Assembly (NCBI GenBank): GCA_951406725.2
Contig: OX597822.1
Coordinates: 24,118,001-24,182,000 of the forward strand
Reading direction: 5' to 3'
Length of the DNA: 64,000 nucleotides
DNA from: Octopus vulgaris
Taxonomy: Eukaryota
Within the stretch, counting starts at the first letter, position 1. The number at the start of each line of letters is the position of its first letter. The notes below the pieces were generated by a model, which saw only the letters and a program-made list of their open reading frames with translations, did no database searches and was not told the origin of the DNA. Of the stretch, positions 2,986 through 51,764 are shown in pieces. The translations under genes were made by a program, and so were the position numbers.

Positions 2986-3944
2986 TCTTATATATATTAT
3001 ATATATATATATATATACATATCTTGGTTATATATATTATTAATGATATATATATGTATGTACTCATGTCATCACCAAACATTATACATATGCAAGTGTG
3101 TGTGTACATATATATATAGATATATACACTTATATATATACACACATACATGCATACATACATACATCAGTGTACAAATACACATATACACACACACATT
3201 CACATATATATATATATATATATCAGTTTCACACATTATGTCAGTTTTTAACAATTCCCTTAACCAGGTTACCAAAGGTCAATGAAGCTACATCATTCTC
3301 TCTTTTTTTCAGTGCCTTTTTCTGTCAGTTCCTTTAATAAGATCAGCTCCTGAATGTCTGAGAGTAAGGTTTCATCCCATTCTCAAGGCTTGCCAGCCTT
3401 AACCAGTATCCCTCGCCTGTTACCATCGACTTCCAACTCCAAGACATCTGTTTAAGAGATTCTGTCAGCTAAATAAGTCTGATTACATATTTATAACACC
3501 TAACTTTAATACGATTAGAACAGCATCATTTAGTTTATTAATTTAAAACCCCATCATTATAAGGGCCTGGGGATTTTAAGTGGGGTTTTTTTTTCTTTTA
3601 TTTTTGTGCCTATTTTTCTTCTGGCTTTTATAATTCAGTAAATAAAGAAAGAAACAACAAGGGAACCACACTCTGTGCCTGGATGTTTTACTTGCTAGAA
3701 ATACTAACCAAATCTTAGTCAAATCACACACCCCTTCATGGGTACATTAGAAAAGATGGGGCCTAAATATACTCCTAAAAAGGTGAGGTGGTCATGATCA
3801 TGTTTGGAATGTCTTTGAGCATAGATCTGCTTGATCAGTACGACATTCTTGAAATGTACAGAGACCATCTTGTCTAAGCGAGCATGGCAAAAAAAAAAGA
3901 AAAAAAAAACCGAAACTGTAAAGAGATAAAGAGGGAAGAAAAAG

Positions 3945-30594: not shown

Positions 30595-30702
30595 CCATGA
30601 CACGACAAACTGGCGGGCAAATGTATTTGTTGTATAAATACGTTCTCTCAACAATGGAATAAAAGCAACTAAATCGAACGAAGCACTTTCAGTGACGATA
30701 TC
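30595..30702 (-). CDS. VAC14: VAC14 coding exon 5 ([36 protein letters not shown])
   Basis: TAG acceptor, GTAAGT donor, 108 nt. Conserved [10 protein letters not shown]. Confidence 0.96.
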
Positions 30703-32189: not shown

Positions 32190-32572
32190 GATTTGATAAG
32201 GACTGAGATTTATGGTACATTGCTATACTAAAGACAACTTACCCACGACAACAGAAACCTTACGAAGAAGATGACAGAGGACCAAGATAAGTGGCGCTTT
32301 GCTATACTCAAGAAGACCTGCCAATCACCACAGAATCCTTATGAAGGAGATGACAGAGGACCAAGATATGAGGAACATTGCTATACACAAGAAGAGCCAC
32401 CCATGACAACAGAATCCTTATGAAGGAGATGACAGTGGACCAAGATATGTGACATACTGCTGTACTCAAGAAGACCTGCCCATCACCACAGAATCCTTAT
32501 GAAGGAGATGACAGTGGACCAAGATATGTGGTGCATTGTTGTACTCAAGAAGACCTGCCCACCACAACAGAA
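32190..32572 (+). repeat. 79-bp tandem repeat (4 clear units plus 1 degenerate) derived from the RTE ORF terminus; UTR continues to about 32850
   Basis: Units start at 32251, 32330, 32409 and 32488. They translate as LMKEMTEDQDMW..AILKKT, matching LTKEMTRDRDLWKYAVREKT at about 8600-8530. Confidence 0.85.
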
Positions 32573-34020
32573 TTAAGATCCTAAAACCAAGGTGCCACTT
32601 ATAAAGCACTGATGTGGGTGCTGGTGTCATATAAAAAGCACTGGGCAAACATAAAAGACACAGGTGATGGTGTCACATAAAAAGCACCCAGTATACTCTG
32701 CGGGGTGGTTGGCATTTAGGAAGGGTAACCAGCCATAAAAACCAAGTCAAAACAGACTATGGAACCTGGTTTGGCCCCTGGTCTTGTCAGTGCCTGTCAA
32801 GCTGTCCAACTCATGCCAGCATGGAAAACAGACATTAAATGTTGTTGATGACGGTGGTGGTGGTGGTGGTACAGAGTTTCTGAAACCGCTTACTCAGTAT
32901 GCTCTTTGAAACATCACTGTTATCATCAACTATTACTGCCACCGTGTGCCATTAGTCTGAATAGGTTGAATGAGTCTACACAAATATATTCGTACAGCTT
33001 ATCTCTTGCCAAGGTCAATCCTTATGATAGTTACGATAAACACCTTTTGCAGGCTGCAGTCAGCTTCATGTGATTGCATATCTTACTTCTGTCCAAGCTA
33101 TCACCAATCACATTACAGTGTAAAGAAATGTAATGAAAACTAATTTGAATATTTATCTGAGCAAACATAATTAAGAAACCATTTATGTTTCATTAATTAA
33201 TGACTATGTTTATTATACATTGCATGGCATTAATTGGCAAAAATGAGTTAAGTCTGACAACAGATAGTAATGTTTGTAATAAACGGATTGGCACCTTGGA
33301 TAAGCATCTTCTACCACAGCTTCAGGCACATGATTCCTTCTGAGTAGAATTTGGTAGAACTGAGCAGAAATCTCTCTCTCTTTCTCTCTCTCTCTATCTA
33401 TCTATTTATCTATCTGTGTGTGTGTGTGTCTGAAGGCACATGGCTTTGTAGTTAGAGCAGCGTTTCTCAACTGGGGTTCCCCAGAACCCTAGCGTTCCAC
33501 GAAAAAGAGTGAGATAAGCTAATGCTACTTTCATGATCATAATATCACTATTCATGCACAACATATTATTAGTTATTGTAATACTCTAATATAGACATCT
33601 TCCTATCTAACCTATTATGTTATCGAAAAAATATAACCATATATATATGATATTTATCACATGAACTATGATGAAAAAATGTGTGAGAGATATGGTATAT
33701 AATTTTTTTTGTGCAGGGGTTCCTTGTGACATGTAAAACCCTTAAAATAAATTACATGTCTCAAGGAATCCCTGCACAAAAAAAAAATTATATACCATAT
33801 CTTTCTCACATTTTTCACATTTTTTCATTGTATTTCATGTGGTAAATATATATATATATATATAAATAAATAAATATAAGAGAGTGGTCACTATATGGCC
33901 ACTCTAGCACCAGTTAATCCAAAAGGTTTCAACCACGAAAATACATGTTTCCCATGAAAGTCAGTACGATTGTTAGCTCACACGGACAGGGCAAATAAAA
34001 AATAACAAAAATACAGATTA

Positions 34021-34103
34021 TTTTGGGACAATTGTTTCGCTATTAATGAATTAAATGTAATTTTACTTACAAAAAAAATCCATTTGTAGCTCGTCAGCCA
34101 AAA
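34021..34103 (-). ncRNA. Minimal type I hammerhead ribozyme motif, intact core with GUC site
   Basis: Minus strand reads UUUUGG-CUGACGA-GCUA...UAGC-GAAA-CAAUUG-UC^CCAAAA. Confidence 0.88.
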
Positions 34104-34787
34104 CTATCTGGATGAAATCCACTCAATCACACGCCAGATTTTACCATAACGATAAATACGCGTGTGGTTCAATTGATTACATCCGACGTTGTAATTCAAA
34201 TGCCCCAACTAACAGAATAGATATACTATTAAATTAGTATCTAATTCTCTCACCCTTATTAATTAATTATATATATATATATATATGGTTGTTATATTTT
34301 TTTGATAACAATCTCCATCCCCTGTCATCTTGACCTGTTCTTACCAGTGGATTGAAAATAGTCACAGACAAGAGAGTGTGGTTGATGGTATGCAACTCTT
34401 CTTAACTTTAAGCAAAGTCAGTGCATAAGTCATAAGTCGATCTATATGATGTCTGGATGCTCCTTGTCGCTTCAACGGACAAACATCAAGAGTGGTATAA
34501 AAGGTAAGTTGAGTTGCCTCCCATATGTCAAAAAAGGTGATTTCACTCTTCACTAGACAGATCTTGATAAAATAAGTCCCAGACTGACTGAAAAAAAGCA
34601 TTGGGGTTGACATGGTTGACTAAAAATCTTTGGAAGAGGTGCCCCAGCATGACCACAGTCCAATGACTGAAACCAGTAAGAAATAAGGTTTAAAAGAAAA
34701 CACAGAATTCAAGTTCTAATAGACATGATAAGTGGGAATTTAAGACAATATTATCCAAAATATAAATATGAGGGTATAAATGGTTAC

Positions 34788-34850
34788 CTTTATTAAGCGA
34801 TCGAGTAGTTCTGTGCCATTCTTGACATGCTGGTCAGGATCAGCAGTCAA
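34788..34850 (-). CDS. VAC14: VAC14 coding exon 4 (LTADPDQHVKNGTELLDRLIK)
   Basis: TAG acceptor, GTAAC donor, 63 nt. Conserved ELLDRL. Confidence 0.95.
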
Positions 34851-35876
34851 CTACAAAAAACAAACAAACAAAATGCAGTTCTATATTTAAGAGATGAGGA
34901 ATTATGTACATTATTGACATTTGATGGATATTTGTCCTCATTTTGTTTGTTGATATACCCTCCAGCCTTCATCAGAACTTGGGTTCTCATTCCTAAAGTA
35001 TTTTTCGATGTTACTACTACTACTACTACTACTATTATTATTATTATTCAGATCACTTCCTGGAATCGAACTCGGAATCTTGGGGTTAGTAGCCCACGCT
35101 CTTAACCCCAAGATTTCAAGTTCAATTCCAGGCAGTGATCTAAATAATAATGGTAATAATAATAATAATAATAGTAATCAGAAAATACCTTAGGTATGAG
35201 AACCCAGGTTCAAAATTTCCCCAAGACACTTGATGAAAACTGGAGGGTATAACAGCTGAAACATGTTAACAACAAAAAAGATGAGGACAAATATCCATCA
35301 AATGTAAATAATGTAAATAATGTATAAACGAAATATATTACTATAAACTGAAAATAAAGTAAAAAAGATAATAAAACAAAAATACATTATGCACAATAGA
35401 AGCACTGTTACATTAAAATAGTCATCTATGTATCATATTTAAAGTAAAAAAAAATCATTGAAAAGGAAAATTATTGTGGTATTTGTCCAGAGGAAAACAG
35501 CACATCTATAAGAGATGTTATCTCTGGACAAATACTGCAGTAACTTGCCTTTCAATGATGTACATCAAATTAATGATACTTAGACAGCTACTTTTAATAA
35601 AGCCAAAATGAAAGACTAATGGGTTAGAATTAACAAACAACATTAATGTAGCTGGGAACTCCAATCATAGCAGTAATTAGTGTATTAAATAAAAACCTCA
35701 GTAATTATTTTTATCACGATGCTCCTGTTTCGTGTCCTTCCAAGTGAGACAGCTCCTCCAGTCTACAGTCAGTAATACCAAAGAAGCCTTGTGACTAGAT
35801 GTGGCAGATGTAAACTGAAAAAGATTTTGTTGTGTGTGTGTGTGTGCATGCATATAAATATATATATATATATATA

Positions 35877-41730: not shown

Positions 41731-43908
41731 GAGTCTCTAAATCAAACCATGGAATCAGCTAGTTAATATGATAGCACATTTTTACCTACCTACCTACCTA
41801 CCTACCTACCTACCTATCTCCCTACCTACCTACCTACCAAGCTACCTTTTCAGTCATGCAAAGGGAAGTAACTCAAAGGAGAAAACCAAAGAAAAGAAAG
41901 CAAGAGTAAAAAGGGAAAGGAAAAGAGATAATTGTAAATGTGGTGGTTTTGTGGTGACAAAGGTGATGATGTGTATTTGCTGTTTGTTTCTTGGTGGCAG
42001 TTGTGGCATAGTTGGTGTTGGTAGCCATGACAGTGATGGCTGTGGTAGCAGTGAAGATAATTGCATGCACTAAGGCACATGTGTTAAATTAAACACAATT
42101 AAATTGTGTGTCGTCAGCTCCCTACAACTTACGAAAACCACCACCACCACCACCACCACCACCACTATCACTACCACTTCCATCAACTAACATTGTTTCA
42201 ACATCTTCATCACAACAAACTAATACAATTCGGGGGGGGGGTATACATATGTTTATATGCTTGTGTCAATTGCATGGTGTTTCAATTGGTTCCTTATTCT
42301 CTCCTGACTTTTACCATCTGTCCTTCGTCATTGTTGTTATTACTTTCATCAACAAATCACTCGCTTTGTTTCATACCTTCAAAGTCATATAGAGTAAGAA
42401 ATCCCTTACATGAAAAACAAATAAAGGTTAGTTGTGAAAAGGGCATTCAACCTTAAATCAATGCTTCAATAATATATTCATCTAATTCATGCGAGCATGG
42501 AAAAATGAACATATTGGCACAGGCCTCACTGTGTGGTTAAGAGGCTTGCTTTGGAACCACATGGTTTGGGGTTCAATCCCACATGTGCTGCAGCTTGGGC
42601 ATGTGTGTTCTACTAACTTCCAGGTTGACCAATGCCATGCAAGTGAATTTGGTAGAGAGAAAGCCTATTGTGTGTGTGTTGCAGTGAAAATGGTACACCC
42701 TTTCCCATGTGACAAAGTGGTATGACACAGTCACTATAAGGTCAAACAGTCAGTCATTGCAGGAGTTTAGTAGTAGCAGAGTCATTGTACAAGTCCTCAG
42801 TTGGAGTCAGTGTCAGTTACACAATATATTCAAGTTTGAGTTACCATCAAGGTAGATGTTTCAAAGTCATTGTCTTGCAGAGCCATCAACGATAGGACGA
42901 TAGACAAGTCAAAGATGATAAGACACAGAATACCGCCACAACATATTAGTGGTGACAAGAACATACAAGTGTACGAGGATCCACATTATAACAGTAGTGA
43001 TGAGGATATAAACAATTTAGGCAAATAATGTTGAAAAAAATCTCTTTTTTTCACAAGAATATAAATGATTCACATGAACAACATACAAAGTAATTAAACA
43101 TAAACAATGAAATGGGTTATTTTCCTTGAGTGTTTAATAAAATATTGTACAGGTGCTATGGGTTATTTCCCTTGGGTGTTTAAAAACAAAATTAGTTATA
43201 TGAGGCAGATATAAAAGACCCGTCCAGGGGTTGTATTATCGATTTTTTTCAACAATCTAAGTATGTCACAAGGTTTCCAGACATGAGTTCTACTTACGTG
43301 TCAAGTTTCATCAAAATCAATAAAACGATGTAGGAGTTAGCTAACAACACCACAAACAAATACACACCAATTTTCCACATATGTAGTAGATATATATATA
43401 TACATGCTAGCATGGAAAGCGGACGTTAAACAATGATGATGATGATATATATATATATATATATAATACCATTGTAGAAGATGCAAATATCAGGAACAAA
43501 TGCCTAACAGAACTAAGAGAATTTTTGCTCAAACAAAAATACCCATCTCTACTTATAGAAAATGGCATACAGCGGGCTATAAAAATACCCATACAACAAC
43601 TTAGGACAACCCAAGGAAGAGGAAAACAAGAACAAGTCATATCATTCATTGTGACACACAACCCATGTCACCAGAATATATTCAACATTGCCAAAGCAAA
43701 CCTACCAATCATTGCTCAAAGTAATGAATTAAAAGATATAATCATGGATCGAGCTATGGTTCTTAGTAAAAGACAGCCTAAAAACTTGAAAAAATTACTA
43801 ACAAAGGCAAAATTTGACCTTAGCAACAAAGGCCAAACATTCACTGTATCTAAATGCAATGATAGCCGGTGTGGCACATGCCATTTCATACATACTGGCC
43901 AATATATA

Positions 43909-44131
43909 CTCTTTCTCTCTCTCTTTTACTCTTTTACTTGTTTCAGTCCTTTGACTGCAGCCATGCTGGAGCACCGCCTTTAGTCGAGCAAATCGACCCT
44001 GGGACTTATTCTTTGTAAGCCCAGTACTTATTCTATCGCTCTCTTTTGCTGAACCGCTAAGTGACGGGGACGTAAACACACCAGCATCGGCTGTCAAGCA
44101 ATGCTAGGGGGACAAACACAGACACACAAAC

Positions 44132-44174
<43 letters not shown>

Positions 44175-44337
44175 CGACAGGCTTCTTTCAGTTTCCGTCT
44201 ACCAAATCCACTCACAAGGAATTAGTCAGCCCGGGGCTATAGCAGAAGACACTTGCCCAAGATGCCACGCAGTGGGACTGAACCCGGAACCATGTAGTTG
44301 GTTAGCAAGCTACTTACCACACAGCCACTCCTGCGCC
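43909..44337 (-). mobile_element. SINE family A copy inserted into the Penelope-like ORF
   Basis: Full length. TATA on both flanks. Confidence 0.9.
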
Positions 44338-45124
44338 TATAAATACAAAAACTGGGAAAATATTCACAAACGCGAATATGAACTGCAAAATTTAGTTTAC
44401 TGCATCAAATGCCCAAATTGTGAAGAAATATATGTAGGTCAGACGAGAAATGCACTATCAGAACGCTCATGTGTACATCGACAACAGATTAGAGACCCAG
44501 AGATCCGTCAGATATCTTTGAGTAACCACCTAGCAACATGTGGTCGGAAAATATATATAATATTTCCATTCTACAAATTACACAGCTCAAGTGAAATTGA
44601 GAGAAAAATCAGAGAAAAGAATTTTATTGATAAATTCGAACCCAAGCTAAATAAACAATAATAATAATACTTAGAGGTACTACTTCTACTGCTACGACCA
44701 TGACCACTAACAACAACAACAATACTAAAGGTGATCAAGATGAAGATAGCAGGAAAATTATCTTATTTAGGGTTCTATTGCCACCACCATCACCACTAGC
44801 AACAATAATTAAGATGCTGACAATGATGATGATGATGACAATTGAAATATAAAAATCCCTGACAAAGGCTATTTACAACATTTCTAAAAATAGCCCAACA
44901 ATTGCTGCCTCAGCCAGGGTTAAGATACAGGACTCTTGACATGTTCAACAAAGCGTGAAACCAACCAATCAGCTTAAGTAATTGAGTGATGCTACACACT
45001 GATTGGTCAGAATACAGTTTGCAAAACCTAGCAATCTGGAGCCCACACAGGTGTATTTAAGGCACAGATTTAACTATCTCCCTACAGTCAAAAATTGTGA
45101 AGCATGACTGTCACCACTACTACA

Positions 45125-45169
45125 TGAACCTGAAGATTGCAGGATTTAATGCATGAAAGTACTAGTTCA
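45125..45169 (+). ncRNA. Minimal hammerhead motif in the 3' region of a Penelope-like element
   Basis: UGAAC-CUGAAGA-uUGCA ggauuuaa UGCAu-GAAA-GUAC-UA^GUUCA. U-U mismatch at the base of stem II. Confidence 0.75.
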
Positions 45170-45846
45170 ATCAGAATGAACATTTAACATTCTACTATTT
45201 TATTTTATTCTATTATATTATATTATCTTATATTATATCATTATAAGATTGTAAATAAAACGTGAAAATCAGACAAGGTTGGAATTCCTTTTATTAATAT
45301 ATATATATATGTATGTATATGTTTGTGTCTGTGTTTGTACCCCCACCATCACTTGACAACTGATGTTGGTGTGTTTACGTCCTCGTAACTTAGTAGTTTG
45401 GCAAAAAAGAGACTGATAGAATAAGTACAAGGCTTACAAAGAATAAGTCCTGGGGTCAATTTGTTTGACTAAAGGCAGTGCTCCAGCAATTGACTGGGAC
45501 AAGTAAAAGAATATATATATATATATATATATTATTCCATTACCACAAGACAGTAAGGGAGGAAAATACACAGTAAGGGTTTATAAAATAATTTGGATAG
45601 TACCATATCTATAGATTATTTTATAAATCTCGCTGTCTATTTTGTTCACAATCTTGTGGTAATGGAGTAAAAATCTAAGTAGTTCCTAGAGCATTTGGAA
45701 TCTACTTCTAGCAGACTGGCATTGTAATTATTCAATGCCTTTATTGTAATTTTAATATAAATTAACCATTATGGTATTCTAGTATGCTGGCCACTAATAA
45801 ATCATTTAATAATGACTTTATCCTAAATACGTGTGTGTGTGTGTGT

Positions 45847-50923: not shown

Positions 50924-51506
50924 CGTGTGTGATAAAACTTCTTTGCTTGGGTCAAGAGAGTTCCCTAGGATACTTGTGAAAATGCGAGGGGATTAACATG
51001 TGTGTGTGTTTATAAGTGTATGCATAGATATACTTGACCTCATGTATTGAGTGCATGTGATTATATACATGCTAAAAGGCACATACATATCATTGTAAGT
51101 ATTCTAGGCAACTCAAACAGAATATTTTGTTATGGTTTTATAAATAGTCTTCACTACATCACCAACTGACAGGATTTGAAGGATATGAGTCAATTTGTTT
51201 CATTCTATTTTGGGAAAACTCAATATATACCTGGAATGGGCAGCGCCCTCTGAATGAAACTAATTGTTCATCAACTGTCATACATGAACTTGGAACATAT
51301 CCATCTTGCAAATTCTGATTCCACATTTCAAATACTTCTCTCATGGACTCCAATTTATCATCACTTCTCTTTTTTCTTCTTGCACGAGCATCATCAAAAC
51401 ACAATACTTGTAAAATTTGTTGAAATCTTCCCCAGCTCATAATTTTGTTGAATATTGGGTGGCCATCTTCTTGACTCCATAATTGTGTGACATTTTCAAG
51501 TTTAGA

Positions 51507-51670
51507 TTTTTTTTTCTCTGTAGTTTCAGCTCAGAGCTGTGGCCATGCTGGAGCACCGCCATTAAAATGTGTGAGGCTTACAGCACCTAGGTTTCCCAAG
51601 TGATCACCCATCTAATTACTACCTAGGCTTGACGTTGCTTAACTTCGGTGATCGAACGAGAACCGGTGCA
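51507..51670 (-). mobile_element. 5S rRNA-derived SINE (SINE3-like), 5'-truncated
   Basis: 51670-51576 reads GCACCGGTTCTCGTTCGATCACCGAAGTTAAGCAACGTC...GGGAAACCTAGGTGCTGTAAGC (5S from about nt 25 to the end). It is followed by the LINE-like tail GGCGGTGCTCCAGCATGGCCACAGCTCTGAGCTGAAACT and an A-tract. Confidence 0.85.
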
Positions 51671-51764
51671 AAAGACCTATAAGAATAATGAGTCCAATAA
51701 AGTTCTTTAGTTCAGAGTGATCAATTTCCTTCCAATTTTTTTTTTTTTTTTTTTTTGTAAACAA

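What the first reader, a model, noticed from the sequence alone, without database searches (positions are those of the whole stretch)
34021..34103. Textbook GUC hammerhead sense to VAC14 in intron 4
Seen: 6-bp stem I (UUUUGG/CCAAAA), CUGACGA, stem II closed by G-C (GCUA/UAGC, extendable), GAAA, palindromic ACAAUUGU and GUC. The predicted cut is between 34027 and 34026. It lies in a TA-flanked insert of about 390 bp (33880-34270) with no ORF. This is the best candidate for real activity in the window.
Basis: partly seen in the sequence, partly recalled or inferred. Interest (0 to 1): 0.72.

Follow-up and report, generated by a model that had tools for sequence, protein, structure and literature searches.

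The report
Solo retrozyme hammerhead in VAC14 intron
This intron holds one young, cut-short copy of a non-coding repeat, present as over two thousand units in this genome, that carries a hammerhead (self-cutting RNA) motif; alone it is predicted to cut poorly because it likely needs a partner copy, so it is likely a passenger in VAC14 rather than a regulator.

Summary
The motif is real: a type I hammerhead on the minus strand (34103-34021), sense to VAC14, in coding intron 4, predicted cut 34027/34026. It is not host-specific. It is a 99%-identical piece of a 536-bp non-coding unit with 2,220 ribozyme cores genome-wide, in arrays of up to 18 units. Subfamilies keep stem I by compensatory changes. 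Insertions sit in (TA)n; two-armed ones join head to head, and 39 of 39 resolved cases end one arm at site A and the other at site B, 130 nt apart, as an intact Penelope-like family here also does. This is a non-LTR retrozyme, a known kind; no sequence-matched Penelope partner was found. The window copy is under one unit long, has one core and no partner within 114 kb. Its stem III is two pairs; the active monomer fold costs 5.6 kcal/mol, while a tandem pair forms a double hammerhead for 1 kcal/mol. So arrays, not this solo, are the better activity candidates. Public contigs suggest the family is transcribed and A-to-G edited (unmatched samples). The scan already reported two-ended retrozymes on other DNA of this and other genomes.

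The parts
34021..34103 (-). Type I hammerhead: stem I (34103-34098 / 34026-34021), CUGACGA (34097-34091), 52-nt stem II arm (34090-34039), GAA (34038-34036), palindrome ACAAUUGU (34035-34028), C17 (34027)
   Evidence: Sequence; folds; identical to the commonest variant, 42 of 171 cores examined
34026..34027 (-). Predicted self-cleavage site after GUC, 761 nt past the exon 4 donor
   Evidence: Position by hammerhead consensus (established knowledge); cleavage not measured; exon end
34014..34110 (-). Extended stem I (12 pairs with one A-A mismatch); U at position 1.7 kept in 16 of 16 aligned variants
33868..34215 (-). Long arm: monomer positions 532-536 and 1-344, ending at fixed site A; under one 536-nt unit; 2 differences from the youngest arrays
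34215..34271 (+). Short inverted arm: monomer positions 419-475, ending at fixed site B; shares one base (34215) with the long arm
   Evidence: loose ends at 34215
33846..33867 (.). (TA)n-rich target flank at end A
34272..34287 (.). (TA)n target flank at end B
34788..34850 (-). VAC14 coding exon 4 (host gene; intron 4 runs 34787-30703)
   Evidence: exon-only contig in run X16

Best explanation
This is a solo, sub-unit-length copy of a 536-bp tandem hammerhead repeat (a non-LTR retrozyme) that was likely pasted into a TA microsatellite of VAC14 intron 4 by a Penelope-type reverse transcriptase, and that is predicted to be largely silent as a ribozyme on its own. Shown: the unit, its arrays, the two fixed ends, the TA targets, the covarying stem I, and the single core in this gene. 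Inferred: arrays are transcribed as multimers; neighbouring cores pair through the ACAAUUGU palindrome into a double hammerhead that cuts out 536-nt monomers, which may be circularised; a Penelope-like protein nicks both strands of (TA)n and starts reverse transcription at site A on one strand and site B on the other, running round the unit a variable number of times; the two cDNAs are joined at their truncated 5' ends. Here the runs were short (348 and 57 nt), leaving one core that cannot release a monomer and lacks a cis partner. Odds: identity as retrozyme copy about 0.9; Penelope-type mobilisation about 0.8; solo copy too slow to affect VAC14 splicing about 0.7.
For: Unit of 536 bp in head-to-tail arrays, up to 18 units on C18; 2,220 cores, at least 785 exact end-B/(TA)n junctions and 1,547 internal junctions. 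Of 66 sampled insertions 40 are two-armed: 39 of 39 resolved are A+B, none A+A or B+B, 1 interrupted; 28 of these 39 were not selected by an end. Opposite arms of one insertion differ by 0.4% (median 0) against 2.4% between insertions. An intact 775-aa RT/GIY-YIG family in the same genome inserts in (TA)n with the same rule, 6 of 6 two-armed loci short+long. Stem I: 3 pairs change on both sides, 95.8% of cells paired, 0 of 500 shuffles as high; N7 varies C/A/G. Monomer active fold -21.9 against -27.5 kcal/mol; natural tandem pair -182.3 as double hammerhead against -183.3 free and -173.6 as two single hammerheads. One core in C9:24068001-24182000. Literature: short palindromic helix III impedes monomer cleavage (PMC4209133); tail at one end and inverted copies (PMC8557442); two RT start sites, both strands nicked and extended (PMC11167929).
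Against: No cleavage was measured. Coral and mussel retrozyme hammerheads cleaved as single copies in vitro (0.8 and 0.1 per min; PMC7229834), and this one keeps U1.7, so a tertiary contact could rescue the monomer; nearest-neighbour energies ignore such contacts. 8 of 9 Xenopus dimers did not cleave at all (bioRxiv 2026.07.22.740005). No autonomous partner shares sequence with the unit: two intact families (775 and 781 aa) and 30 GIY-YIG loci gave only AT-rich matches. The tail is 130 nt, not the 30-40 nt described for Penelope elements. Core invariance in 51 of 51 insertions is partly built in, since 30 were picked by the core pattern and the rest by near identity. Covariation rests on about three events in two subfamilies. 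Circular and linear multimer templates were not told apart.
Confidence: 0.78

Rival explanations
1. Same origin, but the solo hammerhead is active as a monomer and cuts VAC14 pre-mRNA in intron 4, lowering output from this allele.
For: Intact core, G10.1-C11.1, GUC, stems I and II formed with probability 0.95 or more in intron context; U1.7 and the AA next to stem II are kept in 16 of 16 variants, the contact described in PMC11875169; mussel and coral monomers cleave (PMC7229834); 3.3 kb of intron remain after the cut.
Against: Stem III probability 0.0 and GAC:GUC trap 0.98-0.99; U1.7 is predicted paired to G; a spliced contig through exon 4 exists in run X16, though that animal may not carry the insertion.
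Confidence: 0.2
2. The unit is a satellite that grew by unequal crossover or slippage after single Penelope terminal repeats landed (the route discussed in bioRxiv 2026.07.22.740005); the hammerhead is a hitch-hiker.
For: Units within an arm are near-identical (0.25% mean difference), which crossover also gives; long arrays exist.
Against: Hundreds of dispersed insertions with fixed 3' ends, variable 5' ends and two multi-unit arms of matching sequence; stem I compensation between subfamilies; no parent element with this terminal repeat found.
Confidence: 0.07
3. A DNA-transposon-derived element (MITE or Helitron-type) that inserts at TA and carries internal tandem repeats.
For: TA flanks and small hairpins near both ends.
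Against: Ends A and B are two internal points of one unit in opposite orientation, not terminal inverted repeats; 26 of 66 insertions have one fixed end and a random 5' end; conserved ribozyme.
Confidence: 0.03
4. A host-domesticated intronic ribozyme, like the conserved amniote intronic hammerheads.
For: Sense orientation in an intron of a conserved gene.
Against: Two differences from the youngest arrays over 336 nt; sequence shared with hundreds of insertions.
Confidence: 0.02

Closest known systems
Metazoan non-LTR retrozymes (Cervera and de la Pena 2020, PMC7229834; seen: passages, sections 14 and 17; supplements not seen)
   Same: Non-coding tandem units, one type I hammerhead per unit, low GC (172 of 536, 32%), thousands of cores, coexistence with Penelope-like elements, mollusc example with cores lacking typical loop contacts.
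   Different: Unit 536 nt against about 170-400 nt; 52-nt stem II arm; two-armed insertions with two fixed ends are not described in the parts read; circles and cleavage were shown there, not here.
Non-LTR retrozymes as non-autonomous Penelope-like elements (Li, Clavereau, Pollet, bioRxiv 10.64898/2026.07.22.740005; seen: parts 1-3 of 5; supplements closed)
   Same: Unit length within their 51-972 bp range; solo, dimer and multimer forms; about 43% of Xenopus copies are intronic, so an intronic solo is ordinary.
   Different: No mollusc sampled; they link by pLTR homology, which failed here for the two intact families tested; they discuss array growth by unequal crossover, whereas the ends here point to growth at insertion. 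By their rule (two or more consecutive units) the window copy is not an active retrozyme.
Penelope-like element insertion anatomy and RT start sites (Craig et al. 2021, PMC8557442, passages; Frangieh et al. 2024, PMC11167929, parts 1-2 of 4)
   Same: Partial tandems, inverted 5'-truncated copy, tail at one end, AT-rich or (TA)n targets, two internal RT start sites, both target strands extended, hammerhead near the ends.
   Different: No ORF; tail 130 nt rather than 30-40; strict one-A-one-B pairing is not quantified in the parts read.
Dimer-requiring hammerheads with palindromic helix III (Cervera and de la Pena 2014, PMC4209133, passages; newt and axolotl repeats, PMC7229834)
   Same: Helix I 6 bp, helix II 4 bp, helix III 1-2 bp with palindromic loop.
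   Different: Longer helix I and II extensions; a C at position 7 that allows a GAC:GUC trap in the model.

Membership tests
Type I hammerhead ribozyme | Conserved core CUGANGA, GAA, A15.1-U16.1, H17 with G10.1-C11.1 | tested here: met
Type I hammerhead ribozyme | Helices I and II supported by folding and covariation | tested here: met
   helix I has 3 compensated pairs, helix II's four pairs never vary (and were partly fixed by the search pattern)
Type I hammerhead ribozyme | Helix III stable in a monomer | tested here: not met
   Two pairs, probability 0.0; 8 pairs only between two copies
Type I hammerhead ribozyme | Loop 1-loop 2 tertiary contact | tested here: inconclusive
   U1.7 and adjacent AA kept in 16 of 16, but U1.7 predicted G-U paired and loop 2 is an internal loop
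Type I hammerhead ribozyme | Site-specific self-cleavage | not testable with these tools
   Needs a bench assay; only contigs were available for RNA
Non-LTR retrozyme | Tandem non-coding units, each with a type I hammerhead (family level) | tested here: met
Non-LTR retrozyme | Two or more consecutive units at this locus (needed to release a monomer) | tested here: not met
   348-nt arm, one core: this copy is a solo derivative of the family
Non-LTR retrozyme | Low GC, short unit | tested here: met
   32% GC; 536 nt is above 170-400 (PMC7229834) and inside 51-972 (bioRxiv 2026.07.22.740005)
Non-LTR retrozyme | Expressed as linear and circular monomer RNA | tested here: inconclusive
   Self-closing contigs of 566 nt (X16) and 565 nt (X11), one unit plus 30, fit a circle or a linear multimer alike; X11 is not shown to be RNA
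Non-autonomous Penelope-like element | Partial tandem and inverted arms, tail at one end, microsatellite target | tested here: met
   39 of 39 resolved two-armed insertions A+B in (TA)n
Non-autonomous Penelope-like element | Sequence shared with the pLTR or 3' end of an autonomous family | tested here: inconclusive
   None with the 775-aa and 781-aa families or 30 GIY-YIG loci; 20 B-ended insertions had no RT ORF upstream; other families in the genome were not sampled
Host-conserved intronic ribozyme | Single-copy and conserved at the orthologous site | tested here: not met
   Multi-copy and young; orthologous sites in other species not tested

The most novel reading that the evidence does not exclude
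Solo sense copies like this one are half-ribozymes that abundant array-born RNA of the same family can complete in trans through the ACAAUUGU palindrome, cutting host pre-mRNAs such as VAC14; A-to-I editing of the family RNA, including the stem I strand, would tune that activity. The family would then be a genome-wide, editing-modulated trans-cleavage system, copied by a Penelope dimer that starts at two sites 130 nt apart, one per target strand.
Probability: 0.08. Interest if true: 0.8.

Novelty: new member of a known kind. Interest (0 to 1): 0.37.

Why it matters
For VAC14 it probably does not matter: a recent passenger insertion. For retroelement biology the family is a clean, young, high-copy test case of an open question, how animal retrozyme arrays are made: the strict one-A-one-B rule and matching arms point to Penelope-type priming from both target strands and array formation at insertion, and give exact RNA start sites to test with purified protein. 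The likely A-to-G edited sites speak to the suggestion in PMC7229834 that editing explains retrozyme RNA heterogeneity. I found no paper describing hammerhead retrozymes in octopus (searches; the O. vulgaris repeat paper PMC13282606 has no occurrence of hammerhead, ribozyme or retrozyme in its main text), but the scan itself has recorded this architecture several times.

Tried and rejected
Rfam: no hammerhead family hit. PDB sequence searches gave no VAC14 chain. Partner hunt: 775-aa family, 781-aa family and other GIY-YIG loci, 20 B-ended insertions, cores with a shorter stem II (2 matches, not inspected beyond the cores, which look like deletion variants) and an odd core at L094 (no long ORF, poor stem I) gave no partner. 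Edited RNA copied back into DNA: 1 of 8 array-shared private changes is A>G, 4 of 103 unit-private changes; subfamily-level 14 A>G against 8 T>C, unpolarised: not supported. Run search: no RNA holder listed on record. Empty-site test: no contig joins across the insert, but TA repeats were skipped, so polymorphism is open. One search used a structure string two columns out of register and is void; one search replaces it. crashed; one search replaces it. The regex end classifier gave one false B+B (L099, a flank match) and missed variant ends in L093, L107, L115, L129, L131; these were read by eye, and L106 was left unresolved because another element interrupts one arm. Five loci picked for resembling the window copy (all A+B) were left out of the 39. 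Sequence look-up in earlier findings returned nothing. The search for retrozyme plus editing listed nothing relevant among 10 shown.

Full report
Observation. The minus strand at 34103-34021 reads UUUUGG, CUGACGA, a 52-nt arm closed by GCUA/UAGC, GAA, ACAAUUGU, C, CCAAAA. That is a type I hammerhead with the cut at 34027/34026. It folds well above shuffles (z -3.65; -5.02 with the stem I extension), and a strict descriptor finds 1 in the window and none in 200 of 200 simulations. Rfam has no matching model. VAC14 runs on the minus strand. Its coding exons 1-6 were located by translation; exon 4 is 34850-34788 and exon 5 starts at 30702. The motif is therefore sense, in coding intron 4, 761 nt after the donor.

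The insert. The 391-bp query hit 75 places among 40 scored candidates of 1,326, most of them 99% identical and 536 bp apart. L017 shows a head-to-tail array of a 536-bp unit; the C18 array has about 18 units. The core pattern has 2,220 matches, control 0. End B followed by (TA)n occurs 785 times exactly and the internal junction 1,547 times, so there are at least several hundred independent insertions. The genome is 2.8 Gb in 227 contigs; an octopus is my inference from size, TA content and earlier scan notes, not a tool result. The window copy is unit positions 532-344 on the minus strand (33868-34215) joined, over one shared base, to positions 419-475 on the plus strand (34215-34271), with 2 differences from the youngest arrays.

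Architecture. I examined 66 insertions not chosen for resembling the window copy: 16 from the top-identity list, 30 from the first 100 core matches on C1 (one further locus, L094, was unrelated), and 20 chosen for having end B. Fixed 3' ends fall at site A (unit position about 345) or site B (475) and run into (TA)n; 5' ends vary. 26 are single-armed. 40 have two arms joined head to head; 39 of 39 resolved have one A and one B, and one is interrupted. 28 of the 39 were not selected by an end. Opposite arms differ by 0.4% on average (median 0), different insertions by 2.4%, so both arms come from one template lineage. A decayed Penelope-like element in the window (43411-45302) led to an intact family with a 775-aa RT/GIY-YIG frame and a 4,271-bp unit. 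It inserts in (TA)n with two ends about 30-40 nt apart, 6 of 6 two-armed loci short+long. This matches the published tail at one end and inverted copy (PMC8557442, passages) and the in vitro finding of two internal RT start sites with both strands nicked and extended (PMC11167929, parts 1-2 of 4). Against a named partner: neither this family nor a second intact one (781 aa) nor 30 GIY-YIG loci share sequence with the unit beyond AT-rich matches. The only resemblance is a CACCC just before the TA at the long end of both, which is anecdotal.

Selection on the ribozyme. Position 7 varies among C, A and G. In 16 variants, 95.8% of pair cells are standard, three stem I pairs change on both sides, and 0 of 500 shuffles reach the score. 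Stem I was outside the search pattern, so this is independent of it, but it rests on about three events in two subfamilies. Core invariance in 51 of 51 insertions is partly by selection and is not counted as a test.

Is this copy active? Monomer stem III is two pairs. The model's lowest fold pairs the core's GAC with GUC (probability 0.98-0.99 in 600 nt of intron context, stem III 0.0); the active monomer costs 5.6 kcal/mol, against 1.3-2.7 for the A7 and G7 variants tested. A natural tandem pair reaches the double hammerhead at -182.3 against -183.3 free and -173.6 for two single hammerheads. The same trap is predicted in the closed circle, which would protect it. No second copy lies in C9:24068001-24182000, which covers all VAC14 exons found. 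PMC4209133 (passages) reports that such helix III forms impede monomer cleavage. Against this, coral and mussel monomers cleaved (PMC7229834, passages and sections 14, 17), U1.7 is kept (contact described in PMC11875169, passages), and 8 of 9 Xenopus dimers were inactive (bioRxiv 2026.07.22.740005, parts 1-3 of 5). I put meaningful solo activity at about 0.2.

RNA. All runs are coded contigs from other samples, and RNA status is mostly a guess. X16 holds a 2,126-nt contig that matches only exon 4, as spliced mRNA would, and a 566-nt contig that is one unit plus a 30-nt overlap; X11 has a 565-nt one. These fit a circle or a linear multimer. At unit position 238 (window 33973) G makes up 57% (X3) and 45% (X16) of summed contig depth, and 57%, 48% and 39% in X1, X2 and X7, against 0.06% and 0.02% in X15 and X17, which cover single-copy intron and behave as DNA; 181 of 181 main-family genomic units have A. 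X11 shows no change there. X1 alone shows 12-18% A>G at positions 189-193 in the stem I strand; X3 alone shows antisense A>G at 34059-34060. Positions 241, 250 and 128 vary in DNA too and are subfamily variants. This looks like A-to-I editing of family transcripts but lacks a matched DNA control, and says nothing about the window copy itself. Edited bases are not evidently copied back: 1 of 8 array-shared private changes is A>G.

Verdict. A real hammerhead of a known kind of element: a solo derivative of a young non-LTR retrozyme family, likely mobilised by a Penelope-type enzyme from two start sites. Earlier scan notes already describe two-armed, two-ended hammerhead repeats in this and other genomes; I reached the A/B rule before reading them and treat them as agreement, not support. 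Supplements of the bioRxiv preprint and of PMC7229834 were not seen and could list cephalopod families.

Noticed in passing
window 7591 to about 7505, minus strand: A second type I hammerhead of another family (CUGAAGA, long stem II, palindrome ACGAUCGU, UA cut triplet end), also sense to VAC14; stem I is weaker.
   Followed up: no
window 43411-45302, plus strand: Decayed copy (89% in its 3' part) of an intact, very young Penelope-like family with a 775-aa RT/GIY-YIG frame, an upstream ORF and a CCGAAGA hammerhead variant in its terminal repeat.
   Followed up: partly
L166-L173: A second intact Penelope-like family with a 781-aa frame, 46% identical to the first; no canonical hammerhead found by my scan.
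   Followed up: partly
L165 about 3100-3700 on its minus strand; L040, L046, L099, L106, L117: Further hammerhead families with palindromic stem III; the L165 one is also two-armed and sits in the TA run at a Penelope-like end; one interrupts an arm of this family in L106.
   Followed up: no
window 33973, 34059-34060 and L041:1636-1640: A>G differences seen in likely RNA runs and nearly absent from likely DNA runs: candidate A-to-I editing on both strands of the family.
   Followed up: partly
window 51575-51693, minus strand: 5S rRNA-like sequence with many broken pairs, 62.6 bits; probably a pseudogene or SINE head.
   Followed up: no
window 51159-51530, minus strand: piggyBac-type transposase fragment, Pfam DDE_Tnp_1_7.
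   Followed up: no
window 33674-33814 and 34901-35321: Long inverted repeats that look like MITEs on either side of the insert; the first region is repeated in DNA runs.
   Followed up: no
window 32199-32593: Tandem repeat with 79-bp period.
   Followed up: no
L082 1584-2293: Two insertions of this family side by side in one TA run: a single A-ended arm next to an A+B insertion.
   Followed up: yes
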